Assembly (NCBI GenBank): GCA_964374035.1 | Contig: CAYJWY010000001.1 | Location: forward strand, 1-63,913 | From: an uncultured Gammaproteobacteria bacterium | GTDB taxonomy: Bacteria; Patescibacteriota; Patescibacteriia; UBA9934; GWF2-40-263 | Reading direction: 5' to 3' | DNA: 63,913 nt | Shown: one piece after another, positions 24,313 to 63,913 of the stretch | How positions within the stretch are numbered: the stretch's first letter is position 1 | How the letters are laid out: each line of letters starts with the position of its first letter | The notes under the pieces: model-generated | What the model was told of the DNA's origin: nothing | Seen by the model: only the letters and a program-made list of their open reading frames with translations | Database searches by the model: none | Made by a program: the position numbers and the translations under genes

Positions 24313-24397
24313 ACGTTTTGGTGAAGAGGGCTAAGAGGCCGAAGATGGGGAAAGTGCTAAAATGTGTTATCCTCTTAGCCCTCCTCGCCATCTTACT

Positions 24398-25552
24398 ATG
24401 TCCCCTTGCCCACAAAAAGAACTTTGCGGATCGTGCTCGTGGTCGCACATTCCGTATGACAAGCAGTTGCAACAAAAGCTGTCGGATATCAACGGATCGT
24501 TTGCGTTGAAGGAGCTTGATTTCACGTGTGATAAAATCGTCGCTTCCCCGAAGACCGAACATTATCGCAACCGCATGGATTTTGTGATTGACTTTGAGGG
24601 GCGCGTTGGCATGCGCGAAACAAGAAAGTGGTGGAAGGTTATTGATAATCATACCTGCTTTCTTGCAGACGAAAAGATCGACGAAACATTTTCGCGCGTT
24701 CGAGATTGGGTGAAGACGAGCGGGCTGAGTTTTTACGATCGCAAGTCGCATGAAGGATTTTTGCGTTACGCGGTAATTCGATCAACGACGCTTGGTGAGA
24801 CGATGGTGAATCTTGTAACGAGTGCGCCGGTGAAGGATGAGGAGTGGCTCGATCAATCCAGTGCAACGCAACCTGGTTGCGTTCACGGCAACCAGGTTGC
24901 GTTGCCTTTATTCCCGCCGTGTACATCGCTGATGTGGTCGATCAACGATACGATGACCGACGTTTCATTCGGAAGCGACATTCGTACGCTCGCTGGCTCG
25001 AATACGATCGAAGAATCCATCGGTGGCATTCGTTATCGCATTAGTCCAAACGCATTCTTCCAAACAAACTCGTACGCGGCCCCCCTTCTGTTGAAAACCG
25101 TCGAGGAGTTCACGGGCGATATGGTGAACAAAACGCTTCTCGACCTGTATTGCGGTACTGGTTTCTTTGCAGTCGCGCTCGCGAACAAGACCAAACGTAC
25201 CGTCGGTGTCGAGATGGTCGACGAGGCGATTCACGACGCGGTCGAAAACGCGAAGTTGAACAACGTCGATGTCGAATTTCACGTCGCGAAGACAGAAGAC
25301 TTCAACTGGGCTGAGTACAACGCCGACATCGCAATCCTTGACCCGCCGCGCTCCGGCATGCATGATACGGCCCTCGCGGACGTTCTGAGGATCTTGCCCA
25401 AGGAAATCATCTATGTTTCCTGCAATCCAAAGAACTTCGCTCGCGAAATGGTACAATTACAGAAGCATTACCGCGTCGAGCGCATGCGCGCGATTGATAT
25501 GTTTCCCCATACGCCGCATGTGGAGCTCGTTACGAAGTTGAAACGTAAGTGA
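24398..25552 (+). CDS. RNA (uracil-5)-methyltransferase, RlmD/TrmA family
   Basis: An N-terminal CGSCSW Cys cluster, SPNAFFQTN, DLYCGTGFF, DPPRSGM and the C-terminal YVSCNP...DMFPHTPHVE. Confidence 0.8.
   Translation: MSPCPQKELCGSCSWSHIPYDKQLQQKLSDINGSFALKELDFTCDKIVASPKTEHYRNRMDFVIDFEGRVGMRETRKWWKVIDNHTCFLADEKIDETFSRVRDWVKTSGLSFYDRKSHEGFLRYAVIRSTTLGETMVNLVTSAPVKDEEWLDQSSATQPGCVHGNQVALPLFPPCTSLMWSINDTMTDVSFGSDIRTLAGSNTIEESIGGIRYRISPNAFFQTNSYAAPLLLKTVEEFTGDMVNKTLLDLYCGTGFFAVALANKTKRTVGVEMVDEAIHDAVENAKLNNVDVEFHVAKTEDFNWAEYNADIAILDPPRSGMHDTALADVLRILPKEIIYVSCNPKNFAREMVQLQKHYRVERMRAIDMFPHTPHVELVTKLKRK
24863..24905. repeat. G-family perfect hairpin inside rlmD
   Basis: gcaacgcaacctggttgc-gttcacg-gcaaccaggttgcgttgc is an 18-bp perfect stem, read through as ATQPGCVHGNQVAL. 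Confidence 0.85.
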
Positions 25553-25610
25553 CTAGTGACTGAGTGACTGGTGACTAATTTCAATCTCAGTCACTAGTCA
25601 CTCAGTCACT
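25548..25610. repeat. hairpin built from GTGACT repeats
   Basis: agtgact agtgactg agtgactg gtgacta - atttcaatc - tcagtcac tagtcac tcagtcact, between rlmD and era. Confidence 0.8.
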
Positions 25611-28261: not shown

Positions 28262-28271
28262 ATTTCTGTTT

Positions 28272-28439
28272 GAGACCTCTGAAAAACAGCGATCTTTCGT
28301 CTCACGGGCCTTCGCCCGCGATAGCGGGCTTCGGCCCGCGACGGCGGGCACCCGCCGACCCCACTCAAGGTAGTTTTCACTACCTTGAGTGGGGCTCGAC
28401 AGCCCGTTCAACGAAATCTCACCATTTTTCAGAGGTCTC
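28272..28439. repeat. 168-nt multi-hairpin structured element upstream of the HAD-like gene
   Basis: It is closed by the 15-bp stem gagacctctgaaaaa/tttttcagaggtctc. The internal hairpins are gggcc-ttc-gcccgc-gata-gcgggc-ttc-ggccc, ggcggg-cac-ccgcc and ccccactcaaggtag-ttttca-ctaccttgagtgggg. Confidence 0.75.
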
Positions 28440-28459
28440 GTTTGTTCTTACCTTAGGAG

Positions 28460-39660: not shown

Positions 39661-39710
39661 ATATCGCTACCCGGTAGCGAGTAGATCTTATCGCTACCGG
39701 GTAGCGATAT
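39661..39710. repeat. pair of REP-like hairpins (inverted pair) 3' of the RAYT-like gene
   Basis: atatcgctacCCGgtagcga (39661..39680) and its exact reverse complement tcgctacCGGgtagcgatat (39691..39710), separated by 10 nt. Confidence 0.85.
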
Positions 39711-40389
39711 CTTCAATTAATTCTGGGTATGAGTTGCGTACTGACCACAATTGAAGTGCTTGCGTGTAGTCATGAGTCGACCTAAACATCTTGTTGGCAA
39801 GTTCAGCATTAACAATTGGCAACGTTTGACCGAAACCGCGAAAAAACGTGTGGCTTGACCACGGATAATGATCCATCATGTTAAGTGCGTCAAACCAGTT
39901 CGTAACAATGCCATCTCTCCAGGAATGCCCAGTTAGATCTAAAATATTCAGGTGAATATACAAGATGATATATTCAAAATATGCCTCGTTATTTATATGT
40001 TTAGCGTAAAATCTTCCCTCAAACATGGTTCCCTTTCGATCATTGGCGTGATTGTAAGACCAACTATAGGCCTTATTTACTTTGTGGAGAAATTTAGAAA
40101 TGCCTCCGTCCTGTTCTTGACGTAAAAGAAAGTGATAATGATTTGGTAATAATGTCCAGCTAACAATTGATACAAATTGCTCTCGATCAATATCGAAAAG
40201 ATGGTGGCCTGTAATTTTTGCGATTTTCTCGAATGGGTCACCTGAGTGACGATACTTTGAATCATTAAAAAGATAGAGTGATTCGACAAAGCGTTGGTAA
40301 TCGCCGCTACAGTCAAAAATGCGTCGCTTGTCCACGCCACGCAGATACACATGGTAATACTCACCATTTACGAAAGAAATCTCTCTCAT
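39694..40389 (-). mobile_element. IS200/IS605-like Y1 (HUH) transposase, REP-associated (RAYT-like)
   Basis: The HUH motif is LLPNHYHFLL. The C-terminal region FEGRFYAKHI...YFEYIILYIHLN contains the candidate catalytic Tyr. No tnpB is present, and the gene is flanked on both sides by paired hairpins. Confidence 0.7.
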
Positions 40390-40410
40390 AATAAAATTTC
40401 TATCTCCACC

Positions 40411-40460
40411 CCGCTACCCGGTAGCGATATGAATGTTATTCGCTACCGGGTAGCGATATT
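40411..40460. repeat. pair of REP-like hairpins 5' of the RAYT-like gene
   Basis: ccgctacCCGgtagcgatat (40411..40430) and tcgctacCGGgtagcgatatt (40440..40460). The core is the same as at 39661..39710. Confidence 0.85.
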
Positions 40461-49408: not shown

Positions 49409-50692
49409 ATGATTCTTTCAGCATGTGATCCTGAAATTGCGAACGCCCTTAATCATGAACTTGAACGAGAACAGACCGGTTTGGAAATGATCCCCAGTGA
49501 AAACTTTGTCTCGCGGGCAACGCTTGCGGCGCTCGGTTCTATCGGAACGAACAAATATTCAGAGGGATATCCAGGTATGCGTTATTACGGCGGATGCGAA
49601 TGGGTGGATGCTATTGAAAATCTAGCTCGCGATCGCGCAAAAGCCTTGTTCGGTGTCACACATGCAAACGTCCAGCCAGCGTCGGGATGTGCGGCAAACA
49701 TCGCTGCGATGTTTGCCCTGCTCGAACCGGGTGACACCCTCATGGGCATGAATCTGTTTTACGGTGGCCACATGACACACGGACTTCCGGTAAATTTTTC
49801 TGGACGATATTACAAATCTGTCCAATATACATCGACCGAGGATGGATACATGGATTTTGATCAGATGCTTTCACTTGCGCTCGAGCACAAACCAAAACTG
49901 ATTATCGTTGGAGCAACAGCCTATCCTCGTCTCATTGATTGGCAAAAAGCGCGAGAGGTTGCCGATCGCGTGGGTTCTTTTCTCATGGCCGATATCGCTC
50001 ACATCGCGGGGCTTATCGTCTCTGGCGATCACCCTTCTCCCGTAGGAATAGCGGACATTATCACAACAACAACACATAAGACCCTTCGTGGACCGCGAGG
50101 TGCGATGATTCTGTGCAACGGAAATCCATCAACGCCACTGAAAAAAGTGGAGGTGTCGCGTGAAAACATTCCAACACTCGTGGATCGAGCGATCATTCCT
50201 GGACTACAAGGAGGACCGCACAATCATCAAACCGCCGCGATCGCCGTTGCTCTCAAAGAAGCCGCGCAACCCGACTTCAAAGAATATGGTCATCAAATTG
50301 TTCGCAATGCAAAAAAACTTGCGGAGGTGTTGATGTCGCATGGATTCAACCTGGTCACGGGTGGAACGGACAATCACTTGATGGTCGTGAACCTGACAAA
50401 CAAAAACGTGTCGGGAAAACAGGCGGAGTTTGCCTTGGGTCTCGCCGGGATCACGGTCAACAAAAACACGGTTCCCTTTGAGCCACGAACACCATTTGAT
50501 CCCTCGGGCATCCGCCTTGGAACACCTGCACTCACAAGTCGAGGGATGAAAGAGGAAGATATGAAAACCGTTGGTGATTGGATTGATCGAGCGATCACAC
50601 ATGCGACAGACGAAACAACCCTGAAAACAATTCGCACAGAAATCGAAGAATTCACCAAACAATTTCCTCTGTATGAAAATCTCCACTACTAG
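49409..50692 (+). CDS. glyA: serine hydroxymethyltransferase
   Basis: LEMIPSENF, YSEGYPGMRYYGG and TTTTHKTLRGPRG (PLP lysine). Confidence 0.95.
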   Translation: MILSACDPEIANALNHELEREQTGLEMIPSENFVSRATLAALGSIGTNKYSEGYPGMRYYGGCEWVDAIENLARDRAKALFGVTHANVQPASGCAANIAAMFALLEPGDTLMGMNLFYGGHMTHGLPVNFSGRYYKSVQYTSTEDGYMDFDQMLSLALEHKPKLIIVGATAYPRLIDWQKAREVADRVGSFLMADIAHIAGLIVSGDHPSPVGIADIITTTTHKTLRGPRGAMILCNGNPSTPLKKVEVSRENIPTLVDRAIIPGLQGGPHNHQTAAIAVALKEAAQPDFKEYGHQIVRNAKKLAEVLMSHGFNLVTGGTDNHLMVVNLTNKNVSGKQAEFALGLAGITVNKNTVPFEPRTPFDPSGIRLGTPALTSRGMKEEDMKTVGDWIDRAITHATDETTLKTIRTEIEEFTKQFPLYENLHY

Positions 50693-50817: not shown

Positions 50818-50855
50818 CTGGCTACCTGGTTGCTGATCGGCAACCAGGTAGCCAG
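50818..50855. repeat. G-family perfect hairpin upstream of folD
   Basis: ctggctacctggttgc-tgatcg-gcaaccaggtagccag is a 16-bp stem. It shares acctggttgc/gcaaccaggt with the rlmD copy. Confidence 0.85.
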
Positions 50856-50898: not shown

Positions 50899-51768
50899 AT
50901 GGCGTTGATCCTTAATGGTCGTGCGCTTGGAAAACGCATTCAAGACAATGTAAAAGCTCGGGTCGCAGAGCTTGCTTTAAAGCCAGGCTTGGCTGTGATT
51001 CTTGTTGGAAATGATCCTGCCTCACACACATACGTCAACATCAAAGCGCGCGCCTGTCTAGAAGCCGGCATCCACTTTGAAGAATTTCTGTATGAAGCGA
51101 ATAGTGCTCAGGAGGTTCTTGAAAATAAAATTCAGGAGCTCAATCAACGCGAAGATATCCACGGGATTCTCGTGCAACTTCCCCTTCCCTCACAAAATGC
51201 GGACCATCTCATCGCCGTCATCAATCCAAACAAAGACGTTGACGGATTTCATCCTAAAAATATTCGTGCACTCAAAGAAGGAAAGCCCGCCTTGGTCAGT
51301 GCCGTGGCTCTTGGCATCGTGAGACTCATCGCTGTTGCGATGAAGCAAGGCCTTCAACCAAGAACAGCAACTATCATTTCCAGTGCGCTCTTTGCGGAGC
51401 CCATCATCGAACTTCTTCGTGAACGCTCGATTTCGAGCACGGTTGAAGTCATAGAAAAAAATCAGGAATCGGCAAAAATTTTCAACTCAGACATCATCAT
51501 TATCGCCCTTGGTCACCCAAACTTTTTGACGGGAAACATGATCAAACCAGGATCGATCATCATCGACGTGGGCACAACAAAAATCAACGGCCTCCTGCAT
51601 GGCGACGTTGATCGTGCATCGGTTGAATTTATTGCGGGAGCACTGAGTCCTGTTCCGGGGGGAGTCGGTCCAATGACGGTCGCAATGCTGCTCTTGAACG
51701 TGCTAAAAGCGTTTCAACTCCAACATGTGGGGCGAACATTCCACCAGCAAGAATCGCGGCGAGATTGA
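50899..51768 (+). CDS. folD: bifunctional methylenetetrahydrofolate dehydrogenase/cyclohydrolase
   Basis: LILNGRALGKRIQ, PASHTYVNIKARAC, GILVQLPLP and PVPGGVGPMTVAML. The ATG at 50899 lies after the hairpin repeat. Confidence 0.9.
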   Translation: MALILNGRALGKRIQDNVKARVAELALKPGLAVILVGNDPASHTYVNIKARACLEAGIHFEEFLYEANSAQEVLENKIQELNQREDIHGILVQLPLPSQNADHLIAVINPNKDVDGFHPKNIRALKEGKPALVSAVALGIVRLIAVAMKQGLQPRTATIISSALFAEPIIELLRERSISSTVEVIEKNQESAKIFNSDIIIIALGHPNFLTGNMIKPGSIIIDVGTTKINGLLHGDVDRASVEFIAGALSPVPGGVGPMTVAMLLLNVLKAFQLQHVGRTFHQQESRRD

Positions 51769-63777: not shown

Positions 63778-63866
63778 TCCGTCATCCTGAGTGCATCCGA
63801 AGGATCTCTTGTGACAAAGACGTTCATAAAATCCAGAGATTCTTCGGGTGCACTCAGAATGACGAA
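63778..63866. repeat. D-family hairpin (GAAGGATC subtype)
   Basis: tccgtcatcctgagtgcatccgaaggatctc ... gagattcttcgggtgcactcagaatgacgaa. Confidence 0.8.
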
Positions 63867-63881
63867 TGGAAACTCGTTGTT

Positions 63882-63913
63882 GTCTGTCATCATGAGTGCA
63901 TCCGAAGGATCTC
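63882..63913. repeat. D-family hairpin, left arm only (window end)
   Basis: tgtctgtcatcatgagtgcatccgaaggatctc is nearly identical to 63778..63811. Confidence 0.7.

What the first reader, a model, noticed from the sequence alone, without database searches (positions are those of the whole stretch)
24863..24905. Perfect 18-bp hairpin embedded in the rlmD coding sequence, related to a hairpin upstream of folD
Inside the RlmD/TrmA-family methyltransferase gene, gcaacgcaacctggttgc-gttcacg-gcaaccaggttgcgttgc is read through as ATQPGCVHGNQVAL. This falls in a segment between the conserved N-terminal and SAM-binding parts. The inner 10 bp (acctggttgc / gcaaccaggt) is identical to the apex of the 16-bp hairpin at 50818..50855 in the glyA-folD spacer. 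The outer stem parts differ but remain complementary (gcaacgca/tgcgttgc versus ctggct/agccag). This is a second, independent case of the pattern seen in mnmA: one copy in a coding region, one in a spacer, with a conserved apex and a variable basal stem.
Basis: seen in the sequence. Interest (0 to 1): 0.62.

Follow-up and report, generated by a model that had tools for sequence, protein, structure and literature searches.

The report
Mobile palindromic repeat inserted in rlmD
The perfect hairpin inside the rRNA methyltransferase gene is one copy of a small mobile palindromic repeat (REP/REPIN-like) of the kind spread by a tyrosine "HUH" transposase, a gene for which lies 15 kb away flanked by related palindromes; it landed in frame in a flexible loop, which is uncommon but already documented.

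Summary
In detail: 24863-24905 is a perfect 18-bp stem with a 7-nt loop inside an intact RlmD gene of a Candidatus Uhrbacteria (Patescibacteria) genome. It shares its inner 10 bp with the hairpin at 50818-50855.

It is a copy of a repeat family, not a lone oddity.
- All four such elements in the window are inverted pairs of a 13-bp palindrome, GCWACCNGGTWGC.
- Two of them directly flank a 231-aa Y1/HUH transposase gene (39694-40389, RAYT/TIRYT-like).
- Homologues of that gene in eight other Patescibacteria loci are each flanked by their own palindromes.
- The exact GCAACCWGGTTGC unit flanks similar transposase genes in unrelated high-GC metagenome contigs.

The rlmD copy matches 12 extra codons that are absent from the four nearest orthologues, in a predicted disordered loop. 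In the source metagenome the hairpin core is multi-copy, with different flanks at the same coverage as the genome.

Best reading: an in-frame insertion of a REPIN-like element that the protein tolerates. Intragenic REPs and "TIRtron" repeats are already published, so this is a new member of a known kind. Which transposase moves this subfamily was not established.

The parts
24863..24905 (.). REPIN-like doublet hairpin: 18-bp perfect stem (24863-24880 / 24888-24905) and 7-nt loop (24881-24887)
   Evidence: Other copies in run X1 share the extent 24862/24865 to 24901/24905, so the whole hairpin is the repeated unit.
24868..24880 (.). First 13-bp palindromic unit, GCAACCTGGTTGC
   Evidence: 8 hits to GCWACCNGGTWGC against 0.24 expected.
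24888..24900 (.). Second 13-bp palindromic unit, GCAACCAGGTTGC. The centre base is flipped, so it is an inverted copy.
24869..24904 (+). Twelve extra codons (Q170-L181, QPGCVHGNQVAL) absent from the nearest orthologues
   Evidence: Codon alignment, protein alignment A1. Residues 165-182 have pLDDT below 50 in the AF2 model.
24362..25552 (+). rlmD/rumA-family 23S rRNA m5U methyltransferase gene, intact. The true start is probably M13 at 24398.
50818..50855 (.). Related hairpin in the glyA-folD spacer. Its units are GCTACCTGGTTGC / GCAACCAGGTAGC, a hybrid of the two subtypes. Its exact sequence occurs once in the metagenome.
39661..39710 (.). Hairpin (units CGCTACCCGGTAGCG / CGCTACCGGGTAGCG) overlapping the last codons of the Y1 transposase gene
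39694..40389 (-). 231-aa Y1/HUH tyrosine transposase (RAYT/TIRYT-like). HUH motif is H84-Y85-H86, catalytic Tyr is Y144, tail motif is PWSS. Single-copy depth.
   Evidence: PF01797, 30 bits (above the cut-off of 23). Best NCBIfam match is REP_Tyr_transpos, 43 bits, below its cut-off of 80. Best PDB match is 4ER8 TnpA-REP. Invariant residues. Depth.
40412..40455 (.). Hairpin with the same units, 23 nt upstream of the transposase start codon

Best explanation
The hairpin is one copy of a short non-autonomous mobile palindromic repeat. It is a doublet of two inverted 13-bp palindromic units, like a REPIN (a REP doublet that forms a hairpin) or the self-complementary 'TIR repeats' of TIRtrons. Such repeats are spread by single-strand-DNA HUH/Y1 tyrosine transposases (RAYT/TIRYT).

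The element inserted into rlmD after this lineage split from its nearest sampled relatives. The result was a net gain of 36 nt, so the frame was kept. The 12 added residues sit in a variable, disordered linker, so the enzyme tolerates them.

**Shown here:**
- the repeat family and its architecture;
- the insertion relative to orthologues;
- extra copies with other flanks;
- a Y1 gene flanked by related palindromes;
- covariation of flanking palindromes with Y1 lineages.

**Inferred, not shown:**
- that a Y1 enzyme cuts and joins these hairpins as single-stranded DNA at the replication fork (by analogy with E. coli TnpA-REP and IS200/IS605);
- which Y1 gene does it. It could be the one in the window, whose flanks are the GCTACC-S-GGTAGC subtype, or a second one cognate to the GCAACC-W-GGTTGC subtype.
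For: **Repeat architecture in the window.**
- Four elements are each an inverted pair of GCWACCNGGTWGC: 8 hits against 0.24 expected.
- The centre base flips in all four pairs (T..A or C..G), and 20 columns are invariant across the four.

**Link to a Y1 transposase.**
- Two elements flank a Y1_Tnp gene.
- Its best solved relative is the REP-associated transposase 4ER8 (profile E = 8.6e-4). No IS200/IS608 structure matched at that threshold.
- The HUH histidines and the catalytic Tyr are invariant across 25 homologues.
- Homologues in L147, L148, L150, L152, L154, L155 and L156 are each flanked on both sides by their own palindromes: CGCTACCWGGTAGCG, CGTTACTCGGTAACG, CGTAACCGGGTTACG, CGTCACCAGGTGACG, CGCTACTCGGTAGCG, CGACTCTAAGAGTCG and GAGCAAGG..CCTTGCTC.
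- The metagenome scan used the hairpin pattern alone. Of its 119 hits, 32 have full 13-bp palindromic arms, against about 2 expected. Three of those loci (L115, L132, L136) carry a Y1 gene directly flanked by clusters of GCAACCWGGTTGC.

**Insertion in rlmD.**
- There are +36 nt exactly at the hairpin compared with L024 (86% aa identity), L025, L026 and L001.
- The extra residues fall in a predicted loop with pLDDT below 50.
- All family-invariant residues are retained.

**Multiple copies.**
- In run X1 depth rises from 27 to about 365 across 24873-24893.
- Twelve contigs hold the hairpin with 0-2 differences, loop included, and with different flanks, at depths of 27-33x, the same as the window's genome.
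- One 7,117-nt contig has two copies with 703 nt between them.
- One joint shows two copies separated only by ATTATG.

**Behaviour of the Y1 gene.** It is single copy. It keeps its position next to secDF in L147 and near it in L148.
Against: - The abundant subtype (GCAACC-W-GGTTGC plus the GCAAC/GTTGC extension) is not identical to the palindromes flanking the window's transposase (GCTACC-S-GGTAGC). No transposase was shown to be flanked by the finding's subtype in this genome.
- Copy number appears low: at least 4 other places, not tens or hundreds.
- The canonical GT[AG]G tag of REPs is absent from this copy, which has GTTG.
- The net gain (36 nt) is smaller than the element (41-43 nt), and the ancestral site cannot be reconstructed because the linker is too divergent.
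- No empty-site variant was seen in any of the four runs laid on this site.
- No biochemical evidence exists.
Confidence: 0.75

Rival explanations
1. The hairpin arose locally. Replication template switching or quasi-palindrome correction within rlmD produced a perfect inverted repeat, and the similarity to other hairpins reflects a shared mutational bias, not transposition.
For: The stem is built from reiterated GCAAC/GTTGC pentamers, and the arms are themselves palindromic. This is the kind of sequence in which template switching makes perfect hairpins. The net gain (36 nt) does not equal the element length.
Against: Other contigs at the same depth carry the same 33-41 nt, including the 7-nt loop, with 0-2 differences and unrelated flanks. 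The same 13-mer unit recurs next to Y1 transposase genes.
Confidence: 0.07
2. The hairpin is kept because it does something in cis. It could be an RNA stem-loop or intrinsic-terminator-like site that attenuates or stabilises the rlmD message. Alternatively, it could be two adjacent palindromic binding sites, 20 bp apart, for a dimeric DNA-binding protein. Either role could have been acquired after insertion.
For: The simple terminator scan flags it: 18-bp stem, tail CTTTATTCCC. The RNA fold is -42.3 kcal/mol, z = -5.9. The stem is perfect, and the 50818 copy has arm changes that are compensatory at the level of the long hairpin.
Against: - It sits in the middle of an intact, conserved gene whose downstream catalytic domain must be expressed.
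- No Rfam family matched.
- The centre base flips between units in 4 of 4 elements, as expected for an inverted duplication and not for repeated operator sites.
- A perfect stem is also what a recent insertion predicts.
Confidence: 0.1
3. Chance or an assembly artefact.
For: None found.
Against: No shuffle gives the shared motif and none folds as well. The hairpin with both flanks is present in an independent run's contig (X6), and the locus is held by six runs.
Confidence: 0.01

Closest known systems
REP / REPIN elements with RAYT (TnpA-REP) transposases (E. coli, Pseudomonas; Nunvar 2010, Bertels & Rainey 2011 PMC3116915, Ton-Hoang 2012)
   Same: - Short palindromic units arranged as inverted doublets that fold into a longer hairpin.
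- Dispersed copies.
- A single-copy Y1/HUH gene flanked by the repeats ('REPtron').
- The gene stays at a conserved chromosomal position in relatives.
   Different: - No GT[AG]G tag at the foot of this copy.
- The units are very short (13 bp) and perfect.
- Copy number appears low.
- The host is a roughly 1-Mb-class Patescibacteria genome.
- The abundant subtype differs from the subtype flanking the transposase gene in the window.
- This copy is intragenic.
TIRtrons / TIRYT (Di Nocera et al. 2013, PMC3733652), equated with TnpA-Y1 subclass 2.1 (Quentin et al. 2018, PMC6006769) and Bertels Group 1
   Same: - The protein matches the published subclass 2.1 signatures: 231 aa (median 238), HuH = NHYH (NH[YF]H), Y motif YIHLN (Y[IV]HLNP), and an SS tail motif.
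- Di Nocera describes flanking repeats that can be self-complementary or 'double palindromic', occur as dimers or clusters, and form moderately abundant families.
   Different: - Quentin et al. found no REP-like structures next to subclass 2.1 genes.
- The GGGGWSAS TIR motif is not present here.
- I compared motifs only and did not place the protein in a tree.
Intragenic REPs (Di Nocera 2013) and Rickettsia palindromic elements (RPE; Ogata 2000, as cited in PMC3733652)
   Same: A palindromic repeat read through in frame inside a functional housekeeping gene. It adds a short peptide in a loop or linker. Dimers are reported to encode 20-30 aa.
   Different: RPEs are longer, tagged with CGTC, restricted to Rickettsia, and have no dedicated transposase. 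Here the insert is 12 aa and is linked to a Y1 system.
IS200/IS605 insertion sequences and their miniature derivatives (PATEs)
   Same: HUH/Y1 chemistry on single-stranded hairpins. There are no terminal inverted repeats of the classical kind and no target duplication.
   Different: Here the transposase gene is single copy and syntenic. The two flanks are the same palindrome, not distinct left and right ends. No IS200/IS608 structure matched the profile.

Membership tests
REP/REPIN element | Short palindrome able to form a stem-loop; doublet of inverted units forming a longer hairpin | tested here: met
   Two inverted 13-bp palindromic units. The 18-bp stem folds at -24.3 kcal/mol, z = -8.7.
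REP/REPIN element | Repeated at many places in one genome | tested here: inconclusive
   In run X1, 12 contigs hold the hairpin and at least 4 other places have different flanks, at 27-33x, the same depth as the window's genome. The total number and their linkage to one genome could not be established. The window itself has 4 elements in 64 kb.
REP/REPIN element | Conserved GT[AG]G tetranucleotide at one end of the unit | tested here: not met
   The finding's units read GGTTGC (GTTG). The units flanking the transposase contain GTAG, but inside the stem. Atypical REPs without GT[AG]G are reported for subclass 2.6 and class 3.
REP/REPIN element | Same repeat flanks a single-copy RAYT gene (REPtron) | tested here: inconclusive
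   The window's Y1 gene is flanked by the sister subtype, which matches at 10 of 13 positions. The identical 13-mer flanks Y1 genes in L115, L132 and L136, which come from other organisms. A possible second REPtron (two copies 703 nt apart on an X1 contig) could not be read.
REP/REPIN element | Extragenic location | tested here: not met
   This copy lies inside rlmD. Published exceptions exist.
RAYT / TnpA-REP (class 2 Y1 transposase) | HUH motif and catalytic Tyr in a Y---N(P) motif | tested here: met
   H84, H86, Y144 and N148 are invariant in 25 homologues. They align to the HmH and YIYiNP motifs of 4ER8. The position after N is I, not P.
RAYT / TnpA-REP (class 2 Y1 transposase) | Curated family score | tested here: inconclusive
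   Pfam Y1_Tnp scores 30 bits against a cut-off of 23. NCBIfam REP_Tyr_transpos is the only hit but scores 43 bits against a cut-off of 80.
RAYT / TnpA-REP (class 2 Y1 transposase) | Single copy, vertically inherited | tested here: met
   Depth is flat at 28x across the gene in X1. The gene sits next to secDF in the window and in L147, and near it in L148. Most homologue clusters are seen on one contig. No phylogenetic congruence test was done.
TIRYT / TnpA-Y1 subclass 2.1 | Length about 238 aa, HuH NH[YF]H, Y[IV]HLNP, SS tail motif | tested here: met
   231 aa, NHYH, YIHLN(I), PWSS. This is a motif comparison only, with no tree.
TIRYT / TnpA-Y1 subclass 2.1 | Flanking TIRs with the GGGGWSAS motif | tested here: not met
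   The flanks are ATATCGCTACCSGGTAGCGAT-type palindromes with no GGGGWSAS.
Rickettsia palindromic elements | CGTC tag, 100-150 bp, Rickettsia | tested here: not met
   43 nt, no CGTC tag, Uhrbacteria host.
Intrinsic terminator | GC-rich stem followed by a T-run, at the end of a transcription unit | tested here: inconclusive
   It passes the simple scan, with 5 T in 8. But it lies mid-gene, upstream of the catalytic domain. No transcript data are available.

The most novel reading that the evidence does not exclude
Patescibacteria (Uhrbacteria) carry a working REPIN-like system driven by a subclass-2.1/TIRYT-like Y1 protein, a subclass reported as not REP-associated. Its recognition unit is a minimal 13-15-bp palindrome of the form xxxACC-N-GGTxxx that co-varies with the transposase lineage. 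The identical GCAACCWGGTTGC unit is used by related enzymes in unrelated high-GC soil bacteria. In a streamlined genome with little intergenic space, such elements survive partly as in-frame inserts in housekeeping genes.
Probability: 0.45. Interest if true: 0.45.

Novelty: new member of a known kind. Interest (0 to 1): 0.3.

Why it matters
The finding explains an odd-looking perfect hairpin in a housekeeping gene as ordinary mobile-repeat biology.

It also provides a compact example of a palindrome/Y1-transposase system in the candidate phyla radiation. A search of the held literature returned no paper that pairs REPIN or RAYT terms with Patescibacteria.

The co-variation of very short flanking palindromes with transposase lineage across nine loci gives a ready-made set of enzyme-substrate pairs for testing how subclass-2.1/TIRYT-like Y1 proteins read their DNA.

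For annotation, it warns that 12-aa 'QPGC...NQVA' inserts in Patescibacteria proteins may be encoded by repeats.

Tried and rejected
- **Rfam scan of the whole window:** no family matched.
- **Related Uhrbacteria rlmD loci (L001-L026, about 150 kb):** none holds a GCWACCNGGTWGC unit.
- **Metagenome pattern scan:** Only the subset with full palindromic arms was informative.
- **Test of whether the high-GC copies are intragenic:** 9 of 10 long ORFs spanning them have no Pfam domain. In the tenth, the hairpin lies at the very start of the domain. These ORFs are therefore probably spurious or mis-started, and the copies are probably extragenic.
- **Viral contigs:** no match to the 18-nt arm.
- **Search for the suspected second transposase:** I fetched the contigs of P0124, P0139 and P0149. 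These are other organisms' genes. They served as further examples of palindrome-flanked Y1 genes, but none is the paralogue.
not reproduced.
- **Target-site preference:** the 30-nt flanks of the other copies show no common motif, and there are too few of them.

Full report
**1.

Positions 24863-24905 read GCAACGCAACCTGGTTGC-GTTCACG-GCAACCAGGTTGCGTTGC, a perfect 18-bp stem with a 7-nt loop. As single-stranded DNA it folds at -24.3 kcal/mol, against -7.9 +/- 1.9 for shuffles (z = -8.7).

The hairpin lies inside ORF 24362..25552(+) and is translated as ATQPGCVHGNQVAL. The ORF is an RlmD/RumA-type 23S rRNA m5U methyltransferase (TIGR00479, 230.7 bits, above its cut-off; PF05958).

The inner ACCTGGTTGC...GCAACCAGGT occurs a second time at 50824-50849 and in none of 100 shuffles. 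That second hairpin (50818-50855) sits between glyA (49409-50692) and folD. The real start of folD is most likely the ATG at 50899.

Names attached to homologues place the window in Candidatus Uhrbacteria, within the Patescibacteria.

**2. The real common unit is a 13-bp palindrome.**

The degenerate palindrome GCWACCNGGTWGC gives 8 hits in the window, where 0.24 are expected. They fall into four pairs:
- 24868 / 24888
- 39666 / 39693
- 40413 / 40442
- 50821 / 50840

In every pair the centre base is complemented between the two units (T then A, or C then G). An inverted duplication predicts this; repeated protein-binding sites do not. An alignment of the four elements has 20 invariant columns: GC-ACC-GGT-GC, twice.

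Each 'hairpin' is therefore a doublet of two inverted short palindromes. The 50818 element is a hybrid. Its units are GCTACC-T-GGTTGC and GCAACC-A-GGTAGC. Its short units are imperfect, but its long stem is perfect.

**3. Two of the four elements flank a transposase gene.**

ORF 39694..40389(-), 231 aa, lies between hairpins 39661-39710 and 40412-40455. The first overlaps its last codons. The second ends 23 nt upstream of its ATG.

Evidence on the protein:
- It matches Pfam Y1_Tnp above threshold (30 bits against 23).
- Its only NCBIfam hit is REP-associated tyrosine transposase, below that model's cut-off (43 against 80).
- The best, and at profile level the only, solved relative is E. coli TnpA-REP, 4ER8 (E = 0.018 with the single sequence, 8.6e-4 with a profile).
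- The HUH histidines (H84, H86) and the tyrosine (Y144, in YIHLN) are invariant in 25 homologues.
- Its length (231 aa), NHYH, YIHLN and the PWSS tail match the published signatures of TnpA-Y1 subclass 2.1. Quentin et al. equate that subclass with the 'TIRYT' proteins of Di Nocera et al.. This is a motif comparison, not a phylogeny.

The gene has single-copy depth in the source metagenome. It sits next to secDF, as does its closest homologue in L147. In L148 it lies between secA and secDF.

**4. Flanking palindromes co-vary with the transposase.**

Contigs were fetched for seven homologues (37-61% identity). In each, the gene is bracketed on both sides by short palindromes specific to that lineage:

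| Locus | Flanking palindrome |
|---|---|
| L147 | CCCGCTACCWGGTAGCG |
| L148, L149 | TATCGTTACTCGGTAACGATA |
| L150, L151 | ACGTAACCGGGTTACGT |
| L152, L153 | CCCGTCACCAGGTGACGGG |
| L154 | CGCTACTCGGTAGCG |
| L155 | TCCGACTCTAAGAGTCGGA |
| L156 | GAGCAAGG-GTAG-TCCTTGCTC |

This is the 'REPtron/TIRtron' arrangement described in the literature.

**5. The finding's own unit is a transposase-associated repeat elsewhere.**

A scan of JGI metagenome contigs with the hairpin pattern alone returned more than 120 loci. Most are unrelated organisms. Among 119 matches, 32 have the complete 13-bp palindromic arm, where about 2 would be expected by chance.

An HMM built from the transposase homologues found a Y1 gene in three of these short loci (L115, L132, L136; GC 0.66-0.70). 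In each it lies directly next to clusters of GCAACCWGGTTGC, and in L115 the clusters are on both sides of the gene. Those proteins also carry NHYH, YIALNP and WPWSS.

In L115 the repeat is read through at the end of the transposase ORF as ...QQPGCNQVAA. This is the same peptide motif as in RlmD.

**6. The rlmD copy is an insertion.**

In a 20-protein alignment the segment QPGCVHGNQVAL has no counterpart in the closest relatives. A codon-level alignment shows exactly 12 extra codons (24869-24904), coinciding with the hairpin. The comparison is with L024 (86% aa identity over the shared part), L025, L026 and L001, and all four have the same length at this point.

The site is a length-variable linker in the family. 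In an AlphaFold2 model, residues 165-182 are the only internal stretch around the insert with pLDDT below 50, and they lie between two strands. All family-invariant residues are retained. The gene therefore looks functional.

The element has no stop codon in the three forward frames, and one of the three reverse frames has a stop. This comes from my own reading of the sequence. Length is therefore the main filter on which insertions survive.

**7. There are more copies in the same genome.**

Six public runs hold the locus. I laid Logan contigs of run X1 on the region, with these results:
- Summed depth rises from 27 to about 365 across 24873-24893.
- Twelve contigs contain the hairpin with 0-2 differences, loop included.
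- Contigs break at the hairpin, and flanks differ among copies: two distinct upstream and at least three distinct downstream flanks.
- The long contigs have depths of 27-33x, like the window's own contigs.
- The shared extent is 24862/24865 to 24901/24905, which is the whole hairpin.
- One 7,117-nt contig has two copies with 703 nt between them. The two hairpins flanking the window's transposase are 701 nt apart. I take this as a hint, not proof, of a second transposase gene cognate to this subtype.
- Another joint shows two copies separated only by ATTATG, a cluster.

For the other elements in the window:
- The exact 50818 sequence occurs once in these runs.
- The type flanking the transposase has one further diverged copy.
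- A contig from run X6 spans 24746-24918 intact, which excludes an assembly artefact.
- No contig lacking the 36 nt was seen.

**8. Mechanism.**

The best-supported reading is that a Y1/HUH transposase mobilises these palindrome doublets as single-stranded hairpins. The mechanism is established for IS200/IS605 and shown in vitro for E. coli TnpA-REP; that statement rests on published work, not on a test here.

One copy landed in rlmD in a way that kept the frame and added a tolerated loop.

Three things are not shown:
- catalysis by a Y1 enzyme on these hairpins;
- the identity of the responsible enzyme, because the abundant subtype differs at 3 of 13 positions from the units flanking the window's gene;
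- the original target site.

A secondary role cannot be excluded. The hairpin passes a simple terminator scan and is very stable as RNA (-42.3 kcal/mol). Its position upstream of the catalytic domain of an intact gene argues against efficient termination.

**9. Comparison with what is known.**

Already described:
- REP/REPIN-RAYT systems.
- TIRtrons with self-complementary repeats that occur as dimers.
- REPs read through inside genes, including dimers in linkers.
- Rickettsia RPEs.

What is particular here:
- The host phylum. In my search, none of the listed papers that hold REPIN/RAYT terms also mentions Patescibacteria.
- The very short perfect units, which lack the GT[AG]G tag.
- The apparent assignment of the enzyme to a subclass reported to lack REP-like neighbours.
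- The recurrence of the same 13-mer with related enzymes in distant high-GC bacteria.

In those high-GC relatives the copies look extragenic. The intragenic position is therefore an exception, not a rule.

**10. Verdict.**

This is a real feature, correctly observed. It is explained as a copy of a REPIN/TIR-repeat-like mobile palindrome inserted in frame in rlmD. It is a new member of a known kind, of modest interest.

One planned query, a search for the peptides encoded by the repeat in the protein database, could not be made.

Noticed in passing
window 39661-40455: A complete 'REPtron/TIRtron': a 231-aa Y1/HUH transposase gene (39694-40389, minus strand) bracketed by two near-identical double-palindrome hairpins. 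It sits next to secD, as in its closest homologue (L147).
   Followed up: yes
window 25548-25610 and 757-790: A hairpin with 22-nt arms (95% complementary) built from AGTGACT heptamers lies directly after the rlmD stop codon and before era. The same heptamer array occurs at 757-790 but not as a hairpin. AGTGACTNAGTGACT gives 3 hits against 0.01 expected. This may be a second small repeat family or a terminator.
   Followed up: partly
window 28359-28394: A perfect 16-bp hairpin, CCCCACTCAAGGTAGT-TTTC-ACTACCTTGAGTGGGG, in the spacer 28262-28459. No second copy in the window.
   Followed up: partly
window 24319-24390: A 20-nt inverted repeat (90% complementary) spans the first ATG of the rlmD ORF. 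Homologues begin at the equivalent of M13, so the real start is probably 24398 and the repeat lies in the divergent spacer with the SpoU-type methylase gene.
   Followed up: no
L024 (orthologue P0021), residues about 125-150: The closest RlmD orthologue lacks the hairpin insert but has its own 21-aa insertion made of tandem MTQKEV-like repeats at another site. The protein tolerates indels of a different origin.
   Followed up: no
run X1 contigs laid on window 24858-24910: A 7,117-nt contig at the same depth carries two copies of the hairpin with 703 nt between them, matching the 701-nt spacing around the window's transposase gene. This may be a second transposase cognate to this subtype. Another joint has two copies separated only by ATTATG.
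   Followed up: partly
L115 2-784, L132 4969-5526, L136 131-565: High-GC metagenome contigs found through the hairpin pattern alone encode Y1 transposases flanked by clusters of the identical GCAACCWGGTTGC unit. In L115 the repeat is translated at the ORF end as QQPGCNQVAA.
   Followed up: partly
window 63836-63913: An inverted repeat with 28-nt arms (86% complementary) and a 22-nt spacer at the very end of the window. It is cut by the window edge.
   Followed up: no
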